A DNA stretch of 40,462 bases, taken from positions 1 through 40,462 of the forward strand of contig JBJTKU010000086.1 in assembly GCA_046096605.1 (NCBI GenBank). Reading direction: 5' to 3'. Under the pieces are notes generated by a model. The model was given only the letters and a program-made list of their open reading frames with translations. It was not told the DNA's origin and searched no databases. Both the position numbers and the translations under genes were made by a program. Positions within the stretch are counted from its first letter, which is position 1. Each line of letters starts with the position of its first letter. This document shows, in pieces, positions 28,171 to 34,678 of this stretch. This DNA comes from Candidatus Planktophila sp. Lineage in GTDB: Bacteria; Actinomycetota; Actinomycetes; Nanopelagicales; Nanopelagicaceae.

Positions 28171-28246
28171 AGGGGTAGATGCTTAGTCTAAAGAAGTGAG
28201 ACTATAGATGCGAATTGAGCGCTACTAGGTGAGCTGGAGGCATACG

Positions 28247-28783
28247 GTGAAGAGTTCAATCAAGGCGTTAGCAGGTCTTGTCGCAGTCTTCACATTTGTT
28301 TTTGCTCCAGTAGCCCAAGCAAATACATTGGTTGCAACAAGCCCAATTGCCGGCTCAACGCTTAAAGCTGGACCTAGTGCAATCACAATCACTACTGAAT
28401 TTCCACTCATTGAAGAAGGAAATGAGATCGTCGTTACCGATCCCAACGGCAAAAGAGTTGATACAGGAATCCTAACTGTTCTTGGGACAGATGCCGTTGC
28501 AGAGATGAAACCACTTGAGACTTCGGGTCTTTATAAAGTTTCATACCTCTTGCTCGCAGAAGCAGATCTCCCGTTGGAAGGTTCCTTTACATTTACTTAT
28601 TCAGCAGCTGTAATTTCTACTCCATCTGCTAGTTCTAACCCACAGCCTTCTGCTTCATCTACAGCTGAACCTGTTGGAAGCAATTTTGGAACAAACCTCT
28701 TTGTTATCTTCCTTCTAGGACTTTCGTTTCTAGTTCTGATCGGAATGGGTGCATACGCACGTAAGATATTTAAAGAGAGATAG
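28247..28783 (+). CDS. copC: CopC-family protein with C-terminal membrane anchor (lacks His ligands)
   Basis: GGAGG SD before GTG 28247; signal peptide AQA; LVATSP..GSTL, V.DPNG.RVD, G.YKVSY, EGSFTF; Ser/Pro linker and C-terminal TM; directly upstream of the copD fusion. Confidence 0.78.
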   Translation: MKSSIKALAGLVAVFTFVFAPVAQANTLVATSPIAGSTLKAGPSAITITTEFPLIEEGNEIVVTDPNGKRVDTGILTVLGTDAVAEMKPLETSGLYKVSYLLLAEADLPLEGSFTFTYSAAVISTPSASSNPQPSASSTAEPVGSNFGTNLFVIFLLGLSFLVLIGMGAYARKIFKER

Positions 28784-28785
28784 CA

Positions 28786-30603
28786 ATGTTGCTTGATCTC
28801 GTTCTACTAACTTCAAAATATCTCACCTTTATCTCCAGCTTTGCTGTAGTCGGATGCCTATTGGCGATGAGCTTTCTTTTACTTAACGTAGAAGGCAATC
28901 TCTCCGAGAGTGCGCTGGCCTTGCGACGCAAAGCTTCAATCGTTGGATTGATCTGGTTTATAGCTAGCGCCACCTATATCGCCGCGACCCTTGCAGATAT
29001 TTTGGGGAGCTCTTTTACCGATGCTCTAGAGATCACCTCTCTCCGTTCATTTGTGACGCAAGTACTTCTGGGTAAGTATCTCTTTGCACAAACTATCGTT
29101 GCTTTCGTCGTTGGATTCCTGCTCCTACGCGTGAAGCGAGTAATTCCAACTATCTTCTTACTTCTCATCTCTTTGGTTGCAATCGCAGCACCTGCCCTTG
29201 AAAGCCACTCAGCATCAGGTGGTTCTCATGCTCTTGCTACCGGTTCGATGATTCTTCACATTATTGGGCTCTCACTCTGGGTAGGCGGTCTCTTTGCACT
29301 TGCCTTCATAAAGAATGAAGAGAGAAAGCCGGCCATCCTGCGATTTAGTGTGATGGCGTTATGGGCTGCGATCATCGTCGTTGCAAGTGGTCTTATCAAT
29401 GCCTGGGCCAGACTTAACTTTAAGGCCGCCTGGGATACAACATATGCCCGAGTTGTTATTTTAAAAACAGTTCTCACCGCAATACTTATTCTTATTGGAT
29501 ACCTGCATCGCAAGAAGATTGCCTTGCGTCCTGCAATCGATTGGCGTGGAATAACCCGTTTAGTTACAGGCGAAGTTGTGCTGATGGCAGCTATAACAGC
29601 AATAGGGATTTGGCTTTCAGTAAACGCAAGCCCTGAACGCATCATTGATCCTGTAATTCCAGAAGCACCAACATTATCTAGAATCTTGTGGGCTTATGAG
29701 CCTGATCTTTTCTTTATTGGAGCACTTGTACTTACCACTGCTCTCTACATTAAAGGTGTCGTCATTCTCAAAAAACGTGGTGATACATGGCCAGTAGGTC
29801 GCACCGTTGCCTTTGCATTAGGGATCACTGGAATCGATTTTGCTACTAGTGGTGGCCTTGGTGTCTATGCGATGTATTCTTTTGAATATCACATGGTGGC
29901 ACATATGACTTTAGGAATGATTGCACCCATCGGACTTGTTCTAGGTGCTCCCGTCACTCTGGCATTGCGCACACTGCCTCAAGGTAGAACGCCCGAAGAA
30001 CGTGGTCCACGCGCTGTTCTAGTCGCACTGCTGCATTCACGTTATGGCATCTTGCTCACTAACCCTGTTATTGCTCTGGCGCTTTTTGACGGTTCACTCT
30101 TTGTTCTCTACTTCACCGATCTCTTCGGAACTTTGATGTCTAATCACGCAGGACACCTACTGATGAATATTCACTTTATTTTGGCCGGTTTCCTCTTCTT
30201 TATGATCGTTATTGGTGTGGATCCAAGTCCACGACGAATTCATCACTTAGTACGCATCGTGATTCTCTTTGCTGCGATGGCAATTCACGCCTTCTTCTCG
30301 ATTGCATTGCTAGCCACAACTAGTCTGATCGATAAAGGTTTCTACTCATCGCAGAATATTCCATGGCTTGGATCTGGCCTTTTGGATGACCAGCGAGCCG
30401 GCGGCAGCTGGAGTTGGGCAATGGGGGAAATACCAATTATTCTTGCCTTAATTGCAACCTTTATTCTCTGGATGCGAGAGGATGCAAAAGAGACTCGTCG
30501 CATCGACCGTAACGAAGAACGCAAGGCTGCGATGGGTGAACCTGATGAGCTCGCTCAGTACAACGCATATTTACAATCACTGAATACAAGAGAAGAGAAG
30601 TAG
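28786..30603 (+). CDS. CopD-CtaG fusion (copper resistance / cytochrome c oxidase assembly)
   Basis: N-terminal half: SHS.SGGSH, LH...LSLWVGGL, RFS..A, Y...V..K. C-terminal half: RGDTWPVGR, HMVAHM, HF.LAG.LF, HAFF, DQ.AGG..W..GE.P. Confidence 0.9.
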   Translation: MLLDLVLLTSKYLTFISSFAVVGCLLAMSFLLLNVEGNLSESALALRRKASIVGLIWFIASATYIAATLADILGSSFTDALEITSLRSFVTQVLLGKYLFAQTIVAFVVGFLLLRVKRVIPTIFLLLISLVAIAAPALESHSASGGSHALATGSMILHIIGLSLWVGGLFALAFIKNEERKPAILRFSVMALWAAIIVVASGLINAWARLNFKAAWDTTYARVVILKTVLTAILILIGYLHRKKIALRPAIDWRGITRLVTGEVVLMAAITAIGIWLSVNASPERIIDPVIPEAPTLSRILWAYEPDLFFIGALVLTTALYIKGVVILKKRGDTWPVGRTVAFALGITGIDFATSGGLGVYAMYSFEYHMVAHMTLGMIAPIGLVLGAPVTLALRTLPQGRTPEERGPRAVLVALLHSRYGILLTNPVIALALFDGSLFVLYFTDLFGTLMSNHAGHLLMNIHFILAGFLFFMIVIGVDPSPRRIHHLVRIVILFAAMAIHAFFSIALLATTSLIDKGFYSSQNIPWLGSGLLDDQRAGGSWSWAMGEIPIILALIATFILWMREDAKETRRIDRNEERKAAMGEPDELAQYNAYLQSLNTREEK

Positions 30604-31746
30604 ATGACAAGCGATCTATTCGCACTACCAAGCGAGTATCAAGATTTGCGAGATAGCGTGCGCGCACTCGCTGAAAAAGAGATCGCTCCACATGCTCATG
30701 CCGTTGACGAAGATCACCGTTATCCGCAAGAAGCATCTGATGCCTTGATCAGAGCTAATCTTCACGCCGCTCACGTCCCTGCTGAATTTGGCGGCGAAGG
30801 AGCAGATGCGCTAGCTGTAGCCATCATTATTGAAGAAGTCGCTCGCGTCTGTGCATCCTCTTCACTTATTCCAGCGGTCAACAAATTAGGTTCACTACCA
30901 CTCATGATTGGCGGAGAGGAATCTCAGAAGAAGCGGTGGCTTCCCGAGTTAGCTAAAGGAAAAGGTTTTTCATACTGCCTCTCAGAATCTGAAGCTGGAT
31001 CTGATGCGGCTGCCTTAAAGACAAAAGCCGAGAAGACATCGGCTGGATGGCTCCTTAATGGAAGTAAGAAATGGATATCAAACGCTGGAGTCTCTGAGTT
31101 CTACACAGTAATTGCGCAGACGGATCCAAGTAAAGGATCAAAGGGAATCACGGCATTTATCGTTGAAAAATCTGATCCCGGAATCTCATTTGGCGCTCCG
31201 GAGAAGAAGATGGGTTTTCGCGGATCTCCGACTCGAGAGGTCTACTTCGACAATGTAGAGATAGCAGATGATCGTCGCATCGGTGAAGTAGGCAACGGCT
31301 TCTCAATAGCAATGGATACCTTGGACCACACACGCATCACGATTGCCGCGCAAGCACTTGGCATTGCACAAGGAGCGCTCGATGCCGCAGAGAAGTATTC
31401 GCATGAGCGTAAACAGTTTGGTAAAGAGATTTTTGATTTCCAGGCAATCCAATTCATTTTGGCTGATATGGCGATGAATATAGAAGCCGCCCGTCAGCTC
31501 ACATATGCAGCCGCTGCAAAGAGTGAACGAAATGACAAGGATCTAAAATTCTTCTCTGCTTCAAGTAAGGCATTTGCAAGCGATGTAGCGATGAAAGTGA
31601 CTACCGATGCCGTTCAAGTCCTAGGCGGTTACGGTTATGTCTCTGACTATCCTGTTGAGCGCATGATGCGCGATGCCAAACTTACGCAGATTTATGAAGG
31701 CACGAATCAAGTACAACGCATCGTGATGGCACGTAATCTCCCTTAA
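30604..31746 (+). CDS. Acyl-CoA dehydrogenase (FadE25-like)
   Basis: YCLSESEAGSD, GSKKWISNAG, KKMGFRGSPT, RKQFG, GGYGY, QIYEGTNQVQR. Confidence 0.95.
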   Translation: MTSDLFALPSEYQDLRDSVRALAEKEIAPHAHAVDEDHRYPQEASDALIRANLHAAHVPAEFGGEGADALAVAIIIEEVARVCASSSLIPAVNKLGSLPLMIGGEESQKKRWLPELAKGKGFSYCLSESEAGSDAAALKTKAEKTSAGWLLNGSKKWISNAGVSEFYTVIAQTDPSKGSKGITAFIVEKSDPGISFGAPEKKMGFRGSPTREVYFDNVEIADDRRIGEVGNGFSIAMDTLDHTRITIAAQALGIAQGALDAAEKYSHERKQFGKEIFDFQAIQFILADMAMNIEAARQLTYAAAAKSERNDKDLKFFSASSKAFASDVAMKVTTDAVQVLGGYGYVSDYPVERMMRDAKLTQIYEGTNQVQRIVMARNLP

Positions 31747-32300
31747 TTGACTCGAACCACCATGTCGTAAGTTGCATAGGCGTTAACGGGAACATCATGA
31801 CTTTCTCGCGGTAGGTTTTGGCCAGAAATTTCTTCAGGAAATATCAGAGCGAGTCGCCACGCGGTCAGATGTGGAAGTGCGCGATCGTAATATCCGCCAC
31901 CTTGTCCAAGCCGGTATCCATGTGAATCAACTCGTAGCGCTGGAACGATAACGACATCGATGTGATTGTGATCTAAATCCGGTTCGCCAATCGGCTCAAG
32001 GATTTTGCCTCGGGCTTTTAAATTCTTTGAATCGCCATTCCATGGGACCCATTCCATAGCTGGTTCGCCATCTATTTCTGAGATTCGTGGCAACAATAAC
32101 TTTTTTCCAGCGGCGAGAATGTGGCGATTAAGCTCTGCTGTGTTGGGTTCATCACCATATGAAATGTAACTGGCAATGACTTTCGCTAACGAGATTTCTT
32201 TTGAATTAATCAGATAGGAATACGGAGTATCGACAGCGTATTCACTGCGTTCTCGCCGATATCTTTTTCGTAGATCAGACTTTTCATTGTGAAAGTTCAC
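31743..32300 (-). CDS. 5-formyltetrahydrofolate cyclo-ligase
   Basis: EKSDLR, EP.T, LLLPR, VIVPAL..D..GYRLGQGGGYYDR, HDVPV; likely GTG start at 32300. Confidence 0.93.
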   Translation of the reverse strand: MNFHNEKSDLRKRYRRERSEYAVDTPYSYLINSKEISLAKVIASYISYGDEPNTAELNRHILAAGKKLLLPRISEIDGEPAMEWVPWNGDSKNLKARGKILEPIGEPDLDHNHIDVVIVPALRVDSHGYRLGQGGGYYDRALPHLTAWRLALIFPEEISGQNLPRESHDVPVNAYATYDMVVRVN

Positions 32301-32343
32301 GTCAATCCCCGAATTCCGTAGAGCTAACAAGTATGGTGAGATT

Positions 32344-33270
32344 ATGGCAGAGCATGTAAGAGTTGATGAGTTCCTCTCATCTCTATTGGCCCTCTGTCGA
32401 CCACTTGAACCATTTGATATGCCTCTATTGGATGCTCACGGCGCAACTCTTGCCGCAGATGTATATGCTGGAGAACGGCTTGTCCTTAAAGAAGGTAGTC
32501 GCATCCGCTCGACACAAATTGGCCTTGCTGCTTCTATCGGCCGCGACCATCTCTTAACGAGACCACATCCTCGTGTGGTAGTTCTCTCAGCCGGCCCCGA
32601 TCTGGTTGAGCCAGGAGAGAAATTAAACGAGGATGAAGAGTACGAAACAAATTCTTGGCTACTCACCACAGCAGTACGTGAAACCGGTGCGGTTGCATAT
32701 CGGGTGCACACAATTCCAGATGATGAAGAAGAGCTCAAAGATGTCATTGAAGATCAACTGGTTCGCGCCGATCTCATTATTATTAGCGGCGAGCGTCATG
32801 ATGACTCTTTCGATCTGATTACACGAACACTTTCTGGAATCGGAGAGATCACCACAATTGATCTGGCAATTGAATCCAGCGGTCGTCACAATTACGGCAC
32901 CATTGGTCCGGATAAAGTCCCCGTCGTTACTCTGCCTGGCGATCCGATAGCCGCTTACATCTCCTTTGAGCTATTTGTTCGTCCGATGATTCGCACTATG
33001 TTGGGGGCGGCAACTATTCATCGCCCTGCTGTAAAGGCAAAGTTGGAAAAAGCAATCTCATCTCCGGATGGGCAGCGTTCATATATCCGCGGAATCTTGT
33101 CGGAAGATGGCAAATCAATCGCGCCACTTGGTAAAGGTAATTCATCGGCTCAAGACGAACAGACCACACTCTCTGATGCCAACGCATTTATCGCAGTTCC
33201 TGAAGGTGTGACCTCACTTGAACCAGGTAGCGATGTCACAGTCGTCGTACTTGAACGTCGATATATCTAG
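32344..33270 (+). CDS. Gephyrin/MoeA-like Glp protein, internally deleted (no domain II)
   Basis: MoeA landmarks LDAHGATLAADV, IGLAASIG, PRVVVLS.G..LVEPG, ETNS, LPGDP...ISFE.FVRP, ANAFI.VPE. Only 308 aa; SAMDGYA absent. Confidence 0.88.
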   Translation: MAEHVRVDEFLSSLLALCRPLEPFDMPLLDAHGATLAADVYAGERLVLKEGSRIRSTQIGLAASIGRDHLLTRPHPRVVVLSAGPDLVEPGEKLNEDEEYETNSWLLTTAVRETGAVAYRVHTIPDDEEELKDVIEDQLVRADLIIISGERHDDSFDLITRTLSGIGEITTIDLAIESSGRHNYGTIGPDKVPVVTLPGDPIAAYISFELFVRPMIRTMLGAATIHRPAVKAKLEKAISSPDGQRSYIRGILSEDGKSIAPLGKGNSSAQDEQTTLSDANAFIAVPEGVTSLEPGSDVTVVVLERRYI

Positions 33271-33275
33271 TTGCC

Positions 33276-33857
33276 ATGTCTTCACACCAGTGGCCAGTTC
33301 TCTTGAGTGATGGCGAATTAGAGCTACGCGCATTACGACTTCGCGATCGCAGACGCTGGAATCGACTGCGCGCCAGTAATCGACAATGGCTACAGCAATG
33401 GGAGGCAACTCTTCCGACGGTGACAACTGGGCCAGCGGCAGCAACCCCACAGTTACCTTCGTACTTCTCCATGATTGCAACCTTTAATCGTGAAGCGCGT
33501 AACGGGCGTTCGTTCTCTTTCGTTATCTGGAAGGGTCCACATCTGATCGGACAGATCACCCTTGGCGGCGTTATCTACGGAGCCCTTCGCGGTGGACATA
33601 TTGGGTATTGGATCGATCAGGAGTTCGCTAATCGTGGATATACAACGCAAGCGGTCGAGATTTTGACCCGCTTTGGTTTTGATCAATTAGGGCTTCACCG
33701 CATCGAGATCAACATTCGGCCCGAAAATGCACCGTCATGCAAAGTCGCCGAAAAGGCGGGATATCAATTAGAAGGAACGCGTTTGCGCTATTTACATATC
33801 GATGGACAGTGGCGCGATCACATTACATATGTGAAAGAGAACCCGACGGTCGAATAA
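33276..33857 (+). CDS. GNAT acetyltransferase, RimJ/RimL family
   Basis: WLQQWEAT, IGYWID...NRGY, LHRIEINIRPEN.PS.KVAEK.G, YLHIDGQWRDH. Confidence 0.92.
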   Translation: MSSHQWPVLLSDGELELRALRLRDRRRWNRLRASNRQWLQQWEATLPTVTTGPAAATPQLPSYFSMIATFNREARNGRSFSFVIWKGPHLIGQITLGGVIYGALRGGHIGYWIDQEFANRGYTTQAVEILTRFGFDQLGLHRIEINIRPENAPSCKVAEKAGYQLEGTRLRYLHIDGQWRDHITYVKENPTVE

Positions 33858-33925
33858 AAAAGTGCTGGTGAGCAAGGGGGCAAATCCACGGAAGTGAAGG
33901 GCTCACCCCTTAATCTTGGTTCATC

Positions 33926-34678
33926 ATGGCTTCGGGAATTATCTATCTGGCGATTATTGGCATGTGGGTTGCCTATTTTCTGCCACGCTGGATCCATAGC
34001 CGTAACGAATTTACCGGCAAGAGCGCTCAGCGATATCGCAGCGCGCTCGAAGTAGTCTCCGGAACAGCAAGTCCACTCTCTGAAGTTGATCGACTTCGTG
34101 CCAATCAACTCAAACTCACTCGAAGAAGACTCTTCTTCTCTCTAATTGTTTTATCATTCGTACTAACATTGGTAGGTGCAGTAATGCAAGCAGTTACATA
34201 CACACTCATTTTGTTACCTGTTGCAGGATTTATCTTCTATCTTGCACAAGTTCGTCACGAAACGAATATTGAAAAGATTGCTAAGCGACGTCGTGATGAA
34301 CTCCATCGCACCAACGCGGGGGTCTCAACGACCAATCTTGCAGATGTTGTTGCACCACGCACCACAACCGAACATTGGATTCCATTATCTGAACGTGAAA
34401 TTTCCGGCGTTACGATTTTGCCAAAGGGAAGCCAGAAAGCTGCAAGCGAATGGGATCCACAGAGTGTTCCTGTCCCAACTTATGTACATGCAGCTAAAGC
34501 TGTTCCATCACGTCGCGTCATCGATTTAACTGAGCCAGGTAAATGGAGTGAAGAGCAAGAGCGACTTGAGCGCGAAGCACTGGCCGCAGCATCTCCTTCT
34601 CGAGATGAGATCTTTGATCAGCAACTAGCTGAAGAGGCGGTCACTCGCCTACGAGAAAACCGCGCCTCAAATCAATAA
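33926..34678 (+). CDS. GlpR/SepX-family divisome membrane protein
   Basis: N-terminal TM ending W..Y.LP, an RRR before two further TMs, and C-terminal W.P..VP.PTYV; position after glp and the rimJ-like gene. Confidence 0.72.
   Translation: MASGIIYLAIIGMWVAYFLPRWIHSRNEFTGKSAQRYRSALEVVSGTASPLSEVDRLRANQLKLTRRRLFFSLIVLSFVLTLVGAVMQAVTYTLILLPVAGFIFYLAQVRHETNIEKIAKRRRDELHRTNAGVSTTNLADVVAPRTTTEHWIPLSEREISGVTILPKGSQKAASEWDPQSVPVPTYVHAAKAVPSRRVIDLTEPGKWSEEQERLEREALAAASPSRDEIFDQQLAEEAVTRLRENRASNQ

What the first reader, a model, noticed from the sequence alone, without database searches (positions are those of the whole stretch)
32344..34678. A minimal gephyrin-like protein: MoeA/Glp lacking domain II and catalytic motifs, kept with a GNAT and GlpR/SepX
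Seen: the 308-aa MoeA homologue reads ...GATLAADVYAG|ERLVLKEGSRI... The junction is near 32470-32475. Canonical ~400-aa MoeA has about 95-100 residues here, covering domain II and the conserved PFDNSAMDGYA motif. Other active-site motifs are also changed: STGDEL>SAGPDL, SGG>SGE, PGKP>SSGR, LPGNP>LPGDP. The frame is intact, domains III/IV are complete, and there is a clean leaderless promoter (TATGGT, 6 nt, ATG), so it does not look like a decaying pseudogene. Known: in Corynebacteriales the MoeA paralogue at this locus (Glp) binds FtsZ and the membrane receptor GlpR during division. Inference: this lineage may have dropped molybdenum insertion and kept a purely structural FtsZ/GlpR scaffold. 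The deletion appears to join two similar DV.A(G) segments that flank domain II. This is my best candidate for an undescribed system in the window.
Basis: partly seen in the sequence, partly recalled or inferred. Interest (0 to 1): 0.82.

Follow-up and report, generated by a model that had tools for sequence, protein, structure and literature searches.

The report
Trimmed gephyrin-like protein of freshwater actinobacteria
Most members of an abundant family of tiny freshwater actinobacteria carry a gephyrin-like protein that has lost the domain holding half of its enzyme's active site yet is strongly conserved beside its receptor gene, so it likely works as a non-enzymatic cell-division adaptor, although its binding partners are untested.

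Summary
Confirmed. The 308-aa gene is the Glp orthologue of Ca. Nanopelagicaceae (acI). It lacks E. coli MoeA residues 47-144, i.e. domain II. All 78 loci counted, from 14 of 16 genera, share the junction; dN/dS is about 0.06 and glp-rimJ-glpR order is kept. It is neither artefact nor pseudogene. 209 of 301 genomes have neither MoaE nor a domain-II MoeA, yet 298 have a Glp-family match. The two remaining genera keep full-length Glp with an intact active site as their only MoeA, beside moaC, so Glp probably still moonlights there. A second freshwater family lost domain II independently (AU p=0.006). Best reading: a catalytically dead adaptor for GlpR in division (0.6); direct FtsZ binding is doubtful. 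The Glp/GlpR assignment in acI is already in a 2023 supplement; my searches found no report of the domain loss. New variant of a known kind.

The parts
31743..32330 (-). 5-formyltetrahydrofolate cyclo-ligase, divergent neighbour; galU, which lies between it and glp in relatives, is missing here
   Evidence: TIGR02727 118.5 bits, over cut-off; present in 83 of 83 short loci, galU in 4 of 83
32332..32337 (+). Candidate -10 element (TATGGT), 6 nt before the start codon; leaderless transcript inferred
   Evidence: Sequence; recurring TANNNT at the same spacing in related loci; not called by the scanner; no RNA data
32344..33270 (+). Domain-II-less Glp (mini-Glp), 308 aa: domains I, III and IV of MoeA
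   Evidence: NF045515 279 bits, best family but under the 475 cut-off; model pLDDT 89.7, pTM 0.89; 295 residues align to 8bve_A, Z 32.2, rmsd 3.4
32467..32472 (+). Deletion junction (codons 42/43), replacing E. coli MoeA 47-144
   Evidence: same span in 78 of 78 short loci
32749..32772 (+). Glp-specific EDQLVRAD segment of domain III, candidate partner-binding surface (inferred)
   Evidence: D137, Q138, R141, D143 in 78 of 78 short loci; D, Q and R also in 16-18 of 19 class Glps and not conserved in 5 MoeA sequences
33097..33120 (+). Domain IV hairpin equivalent to the C. glutamicum FtsZ/GlpR-binding loop; shortened and polar
   Evidence: 8 residues here against 12 in C. glutamicum and 10 in sister genera; aromatic at the Y369 position in 1 of 78 short, 7 of 7 sister and 14 of 19 class sequences
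33276..33857 (+). RimJ-like GNAT acetyltransferase
   Evidence: PF13302 over cut-off; NF008072 69.5 bits, under cut-off; next to glp in 82 of 83 short loci, the miss at a contig end
33926..34678 (+). GlpR/SepX-like membrane protein, 250 aa
   Evidence: NF050099 82 bits, under the 150 cut-off; found in 81 of 83 short loci, both misses at contig ends; acI orthologues listed as GlpR in PMC10522489 Table S3
34376..34387 (+). Extra W-I-P-L motif of GlpR, seen only in short-form Nanopelagicaceae
   Evidence: Present in 12 of 14 short-form genera (not g37, g40); absent from the 5 g32/g39 GlpRs, the class relatives and the second short lineage
34451..34483 (+). Conserved W-x-P-x-x-V-P-x-P-T-Y motif of GlpR, candidate Glp-binding peptide (inferred)
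   Evidence: W176, P178, P182, P184, Y186 invariant in 27 of 27 aligned GlpRs across families and 62 of 62 short-form ones

Best explanation
The gene encodes a Glp that lacks MoeA domain II and several active-site residues, is fixed and under purifying selection in 14 of 16 genera of Ca. Nanopelagicaceae, and likely acts as a non-catalytic, probably dimeric adaptor that would bind the membrane protein GlpR during cell division. Shown: orthology, the deletion, its spread, selection, gene order, and independence from the Moco pathway. Inferred history: the family ancestor had one bifunctional Glp in a galU-glp-moaC-moaB-rimJ-glpR locus, as genera g32 and g39 still do. One descendant lineage lost moaC/moaB from the locus and deleted domain II; members that make Moco use a separate MoeA. 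Inferred mechanism: the conserved domain I/III surface (R120, EDQLVRAD, G188-x-D190, R213) binds the W-x-P-x-x-V-P-x-P-T-Y tail of GlpR. Step odds: no Mo insertase activity 0.97; works with GlpR 0.7; in division 0.6; binds the FtsZ tail directly 0.35; any role is Wag31-independent 0.9.
For: Deletion and residue losses. [quoted passage not shown] 298 of 301 genomes have an NF045515 match and 7 are full length; 209 of 301 have neither MoaE nor MoeA_N. G000 (83% complete) gave no moaA, moaC, moaE, MoeA_N, PF02738 or PF00174 match; its one PF00384 match sits between nuoF-like and nuoH-like genes. Median dN/dS 0.063, max 0.111, over 179 of 946 pairs with usable dS. Synteny. Confident fold. Engineered gephyrin without subdomain II keeps dimerisation and receptor binding (PMC12441120, passages). 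Glp binds GlpR and FtsZ and is septal in C. glutamicum (PMC10522489 Results); SepX co-localises with FtsZ at Streptomyces septa (PMC8748795, passages). FtsZ was found in 5 of 5 and SepF in 5 of 5 genomes tested.
Against: No function was tested in this family. The loop whose deletion abolishes both FtsZ and GlpR binding in C. glutamicum is shortened; of 7 side-chain contacts only V338 and L360 are identical in the window's protein. Domain IV identity across the 14 genera is 32%, against 46% among 21 full-length Glps. GlpR's known downstream partner Wag31/DivIVA was not found (0 of 201 over cut-off). rimJ is as tightly linked as glpR, so synteny cannot say which is the partner. The model's hinge is closer to closed Mo insertases (Cnx1E rmsd 1.9) than to open Glp (rmsd 3.3-3.4); this is a predicted monomer, so weak.
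Confidence: 0.6

Rival explanations
1. One reading: mini-Glp keeps the canonical C. glutamicum mode and binds both the FtsZ C-terminal peptide and GlpR through the domain IV hairpin.
For: V338 and L360 equivalents stay hydrophobic in most short forms; three of the known contacts are main-chain hydrogen bonds; FtsZ tails keep a D-[VI]-P-D-F core in 5 of 5 genomes; both proline-rich hinges are kept (P20, P74, P76 in 78 of 78).
Against: Aromatic at the Y369 position in 1 of 78; hairpin 7-11 residues in 77 of 78; domain IV is the most variable folded domain. Conservation of the FtsZ tail is expected anyway from SepF binding (established knowledge).
Confidence: 0.3
2. The module's retained job is not division: mini-Glp scaffolds or regulates the adjacent RimJ-like acetyltransferase at the membrane through GlpR.
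For: rimJ lies between glp and glpR in 82 of 83 short loci and starts 5 nt after the glp stop here; it stayed when galU, moaC and moaB left; Wag31 is missing.
Against: No interaction data. The sections read of PMC10522489 do not name the GNAT as a Glp partner, and the deletion phenotypes known elsewhere are division defects.
Confidence: 0.15
3. Domain III keeps a nucleotide-binding or pyrophosphatase activity of the MogA/CinA type, and that is what selection preserves.
For: Weak CinA N-terminal matches; D86, E101 and N103 near the old pocket are conserved in 75-78 of 78.
Against: The Gly-Gly loop (G252) is lost in 78 of 78; D228 is kept in only 44 of 78; N300 in 1 of 78.
Confidence: 0.1
4. Assembly artefact or decaying pseudogene.
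For: None found.
Against: Same junction in 78 loci of 14 genera, closed genomes included; dN/dS about 0.06; no stops inside any listed family match.
Confidence: 0.01

Closest known systems
Glp/GlpR of Corynebacterium glutamicum (PDB 8BVE/8BVF; NCBIfam NF045515; PMC10522489)
   Same: Same locus and orthologous group; best family and best solved-structure match by sequence and Foldseek; domains I, III, IV and proline-rich hinges kept; acI members already tabulated as Glp in Table S3.
   Different: No domain II; FtsZ loop shortened, without M361/Y369; the GlpR stretch between its first and second hydrophobic segments is about 45 residues against residues 27-218; no Wag31 found in the family.
MoeA / Cnx1E / gephyrin E-domain molybdenum insertases
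   Same: Fold of domains I, III and IV (Z 31-34, 295-301 residues aligned).
   Different: Lacks D59, T100, G101, R137 (deleted), E188, G252, N300 and S371; cannot form the two-monomer active site.
Engineered gephyrin lacking subdomain II (PMC12441120)
   Same: Same module removed; that construct keeps dimerisation and receptor binding.
   Different: Here the deletion is natural, old and fixed. In gephyrin it abolishes filaments and clustering, so mini-Glp would not build gephyrin-type filaments.
SepX of Streptomyces venezuelae (PMC8748795)
   Same: GlpR homologue with a septal role; no direct FtsZ contact was detected and an unknown partner was proposed.
   Different: Filamentous host; 'moeA' has 0 occurrences in that paper's main text.

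Membership tests
Glp (gephyrin-like protein) | Branches with Glp, not with canonical MoeA | tested here: met
   Nested among full-length Glps, with g32/g39 at 99-100 SH-aLRT (quick trees)
Glp (gephyrin-like protein) | Synteny with glpR | tested here: met
   81 of 83 short loci, misses at contig ends
Glp (gephyrin-like protein) | Two proline-rich hinges between domains I and III | tested here: met
   P20, P74, P76 in 78 of 78; located from the paper's text, its figure was not seen
Glp (gephyrin-like protein) | FtsZ-binding loop delimited by M361 and Y369 | tested here: not met
   S253 for M361; aromatic in 1 of 78; loop 4 residues shorter. The signature was defined on Corynebacteriales, and M361 is also absent from most full-length Glps here
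Glp (gephyrin-like protein) | Four-domain architecture; NF045515 over cut-off | tested here: not met
   279 bits against 475; domain II absent. So filed as a domain-deleted orthologue of Glp, not as a canonical member
Glp (gephyrin-like protein) | Binds FtsZ and GlpR and localises to the septum | not testable with these tools
   Needs experiment
MoeA molybdenum insertase | Domain II with D59, T100, R137 | tested here: not met
   Gapped in 78 of 78; PF03453 18.4 bits against 30.8
MoeA molybdenum insertase | Domain III/IV residues E188, G252, N300, S371 | tested here: not met
   D75, E71, D73 and Q71 of 78 at these columns
SepX/GlpR | Family model over cut-off | tested here: inconclusive
   NF050099 E 5e-23, 82 bits against 150
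SepX/GlpR | Three hydrophobic segments, conserved tail motif, position after glp and GNAT | tested here: met
   hydrophobic segments judged by eye from the sequence
Glp-GlpR-Wag31 network | Wag31/DivIVA encoded in the genome | tested here: not met
   PF05103 0 of 201 over cut-off, TIGR03544 0 of 5, yggT abuts ileS in 6 of 6; the same search finds it in 5 of 5 other Actinomycetes

The most novel reading that the evidence does not exclude
Nanopelagicaceae capture the whole path from moonlighting enzyme to pure scaffold. Two genera keep a Glp that is both their only molybdenum insertase and a divisome protein, against the published prediction that Glp does not moonlight. The other 14 carry a minimal Glp that binds a co-evolved GlpR tail through a domain I/III surface, in a family that has lost DivIVA and has MreB. 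The same domain loss recurred in other actinomycete lineages once catalysis became redundant. This would define a Wag31-independent core function of Glp-GlpR.
Probability: 0.35. Interest if true: 0.72.

Novelty: new variant of a known kind. Interest (0 to 1): 0.54.

Why it matters
PMC11733289 states that it is unknown whether Glp keeps enzyme activity and predicts it does not moonlight. This family offers both ends of a natural experiment. A form that cannot be an enzyme is nearly universally kept, which shows that the non-catalytic role alone is selected. A sister form is the only MoeA in genomes with Moco genes and molybdoenzymes, which makes moonlighting testable with one complementation assay. 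The 308-aa protein marks the minimal parts of the scaffold. The missing Wag31 implies a function of Glp-GlpR that the C. glutamicum model does not cover. The locus is conserved in mycobacteria, where it has been proposed as a drug target.

Tried and rejected
Complex prediction of the mini-Glp dimer with GlpR residues 145-215 gave 'no answer' (score 0.00, mark 0.32); it is no evidence either way. No RNA holder was listed for the locus, so expression and the leaderless start are untested and read laying was not used. The AU test that all 14 short forms in a Glp-only tree are one clade was not rejected (p=0.37). RimJ alone gave p=0.09 for the two main short lineages; only Glp III-IV plus RimJ rejected it (p=0.0064). 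The careful 52-row tree did not finish, so all trees are quick trees. The promoter scanner found nothing at the glp start. Earlier findings of this scan: nothing by sequence, words or relatives. G466's short open frame looks like a frameshifted full-length gene and G460 is full length, so neither is counted as a domain loss. P0177, P0189, P0161, P0217, P0222, P0210 and P0243 are fragments or odd fusions and were left out. Deletion by microhomology between the two D-V-x-A/G segments cannot be tested at this age and is not needed. The 13 weak PF05103 matches cover only coiled-coil positions 39-123 and were not counted as DivIVA.

Full report
Observation. The window gene at 32344-33270 encodes 308 residues. 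Its best family is NCBIfam NF045515, Glp (279 bits, cut-off 475), and its best solved relative by sequence is C. glutamicum Glp, 8bve. Against E. coli MoeA (fetched) positions 47-144 are missing. In C. glutamicum numbering about 40-151 are missing, which is all of domain II (46-145; PMC10522489 Fig. 2 legend). An AlphaFold2 model from a 51-row alignment is confident (pLDDT 89.7, pTM 0.89) and closes the cut as a short hairpin. 295 residues superpose on 8bve_A (Z 32.2, rmsd 3.4) and 300 on Cnx1E (Z 33.7, rmsd 1.9). Downstream lie a RimJ-like GNAT and a SepX/GlpR-like protein.

Spread. Identical-sequence look-ups name the family Ca. Nanopelagicaceae; genus g28 is Nanopelagicus (WP_095672708.1, WP_095681088.1, WP_095688526.1; 299-303 aa). 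That the window's genus is Planktophila is my inference, not a call result. 298 of 301 genomes of the order have an NF045515 match, and only 7 (genera g32, g39) pass the cut-off and are full length. A few of the 298 best matches are weak or partial, so 298 is an upper bound. All 30 genomes picked from the 13 other genera are short. I held 83 short loci and counted 78: three duplicates and, by mistake, two non-duplicates (L043, L044) were dropped. All 78 have the same 13-residue span across the junction. rimJ follows in 82 and glpR in 81 of the 83, the misses at contig ends. Nei-Gojobori dN/dS in the window's genus (44 sequences; 179 of 946 pairs with dS 0.05-2) has median 0.063 and maximum 0.111, lower than rimJ (0.109) or glpR (0.146). 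Artefact and decay are excluded.

Catalysis. [quoted passage not shown] The short form lacks D59, T100, G101 and R137 and has replaced E188, G252, N300 and S371 (the residues are those mutated in the PDB entries, plus motif positions). MoaE occurs in 91 and MoeA_N (PF03453) in 90 of the 301 genomes, and 209 have neither. Of 84 MoaE genomes without full-length Glp, 82 have a separate domain-II MoeA; the exceptions are the drafts G207 and G220. Many genomes are incomplete, but the pattern holds among those at least 90% complete (MoaE 64, MoeA_N 63, Glp-family match 183, of 183). G000 (83% complete) gave no match for moaA, moaC, moaE, MoeA_N, PF02738 or PF00174, and its PF00384 match lies between nuoF-like and nuoH-like genes. 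So the gene is kept whether or not Moco is made.

The sister genera. In all 7 g32/g39 genomes the only PF03453 match is Glp itself (same coordinates), and all 7 have MoaE. The 4 tested have moaA, moaC and xanthine-dehydrogenase-type enzymes. The locus reads galU-glp-moaC-moaB-rimJ-glpR in the 5 of 7 loci long enough to show it, and D59, T100, R137, D142, E188, D228, D259, N300, R350 and S371 are kept in 7 of 7. These are draft genomes (87-99% complete), so a missed MoeA is possible in any one but unlikely in all. I infer that Glp is still the working insertase there (about 0.7). That conflicts with PMC11733289, which predicts that Glp does not moonlight.

Repeated loss. Other domain-II-less Glps exist, with different junction lengths (8-28 residues). 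One lineage (P0160; freshwater MAGs; 22 loci) keeps galU, has two other MoeA_N genes and MoaE in 4 of 4 genomes, and shares its family with full-length Glps (13 close short matches and about 17 full-length among 61 genomes). A Glp III-IV plus RimJ tree puts each short lineage with its own family's full-length forms (100 and 98) and rejects their union (p-AU 0.0064). RimJ alone does not reject it (0.09), and a Glp-only test of all 14 short forms does not either (0.37). So two origins are supported and more are only suggested. G048 (97% complete) has a short Glp and neither MoeA_N nor MoaE. At class level the form is rare: 1 of 143 genomes outside the family showed a continuous match among the 150 matches listed, with 41 further matches unlisted (this tally includes the unpublished G059, G347 and G353, as that includes G042, G050 and G059; no other claim rests on them).

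What is kept and what is not. In C. glutamicum, FtsZ binds a domain IV hairpin, and deleting it abolishes both FtsZ and GlpR binding. Here the hairpin is 8 residues against 12, and an aromatic at the Y369 position occurs in 1 of 78 short forms, 7 of 7 sister forms and 14 of 19 class Glps. Domain IV identity across the 14 genera is 32%, against 59% for domain III and 69% for domain I. Conservation concentrates on positions typical of Glp and not of MoeA: P74, P76, R120, EDQLVR, G188, D190, P193, R213 (only 5 MoeA sequences compared). GlpR keeps an invariant W-x-P-x-x-x-P-x-P-x-Y motif and has gained an upstream W-I-P-L motif in 12 of 14 short-form genera; the gain may be co-evolution or just shared descent. 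Engineered gephyrin without subdomain II keeps dimerisation and receptor binding but loses filaments (PMC12441120, passages).

Missing partner. DivIVA/Wag31, which binds GlpR in C. glutamicum, was not found: 0 of 201 over cut-off and 0 of 5 with TIGR03544, three closed genomes included. No gene lies between yggT and ileS in 6 of 6 genomes (that divIVA usually sits there is recalled). The same search finds it in 5 of 5 other Actinomycetes, including the second short lineage. MreB is present in 4 of 4 family genomes. A full-length genome (G126) lacks DivIVA too, so this loss predates the deletion and is not its cause elsewhere.

Mechanism. I commit to a catalytically dead, probably dimeric adaptor that binds the GlpR tail through domains I/III and serves division (0.6). 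Direct FtsZ binding is less likely than not (0.35). Rivals are the canonical hairpin mode, a RimJ scaffold and residual nucleotide chemistry. None of the binding steps was shown.

Literature. PMC10522489: Results, Discussion, extended legends and two parts of supplementary file 4 read; Table S3 lists five acI genomes with Glp and GlpR and MoeA 'NA', two of them proteins shown short here (ASY24267.1, ASY09783.1). PMC11733289: parts 1-4 of 7 read; 'domain II', 'Nanopelagic', 'deletion' and 'truncated' have 0 hits in its main text; its supplements were not opened and could bear on novelty. PMC12441120, PMC8748795, PMC11434336 and PMC9458074: passages only. Searches listed no paper on a domain-II-less Glp or on DivIVA loss in acI; the library lacks most subscription papers, and figures and bioRxiv supplements were not seen.

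Verdict. Real, fixed and selected; a new variant of the known Glp/GlpR system, not a new system. Its value is the natural contrast between a probably bifunctional and a purely structural Glp in one family, the independent repeat of the loss, and the absence of Wag31. Interest 0.54.

Noticed in passing
G000, G007, G083, G087, G126, G255 (loci L189-L194); 201 genomes: DivIVA/Wag31 not found in Nanopelagicaceae, and yggT directly abuts a convergent ileS; MreB present in 4 of 4 tested. Unusual for Actinomycetes, which typically grow at the poles (recalled).
   Followed up: partly
L116-L122 (G126, G166, G210, G261, G337, G255, G299): Full-length Glp with an intact active site is the only domain-II MoeA in genomes that have Moco genes and molybdoenzymes: candidate moonlighting Glp.
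   Followed up: partly
L129-L150, L152-L161, L179-L181: Second freshwater family with an independent domain II deletion (17-residue junction), keeping galU, DivIVA and two canonical MoeAs; some full-length relatives (L167, L170) show eroded domain II motifs.
   Followed up: partly
L175-L178 (G486, G473, G472, G480); L107 (G048); proteins P0145, P0163, P0225, P0226, P0227, P0251: Further, more diverged domain-II-less Glps with junctions of other lengths; the number of origins is not settled.
   Followed up: partly
L079, L080, L084, L085 (genera g30, g38): galU is still upstream of the short glp here and the leaderless -10 element is absent, so the domain loss appears to predate the loss of galU from the locus.
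   Followed up: partly
L111-L115, FtsZ C-termini: The tail ends D-I-D-[VI]-P-D-F-M in the 3 short-form genomes and [ED]-L-D-[VI]-P-D-F-L in the 2 full-length ones; the changed Leu is a Glp contact in C. glutamicum. Only 5 sequences.
   Followed up: no
L125-L127 (G031, G109, G061): The canonical MoeA of short-form genomes lies in separate moaC/moaB/moaE clusters, is far from Glp in the tree, and is patchy across genera, which suggests later gain or repeated loss.
   Followed up: partly
window 28229-30603 (+): A CopC-like and CopD/CtaG-like gene pair (labels recalled from the sequence, no family scan) lies upstream; a similar pair precedes the glp locus in L116 and L120.
   Followed up: no
L120:1042-2112; L107:40-1161: A transposase-like ORF just after glpR in G255 and an integrase-like ORF after glpR in G048 (judged by eye).
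   Followed up: no
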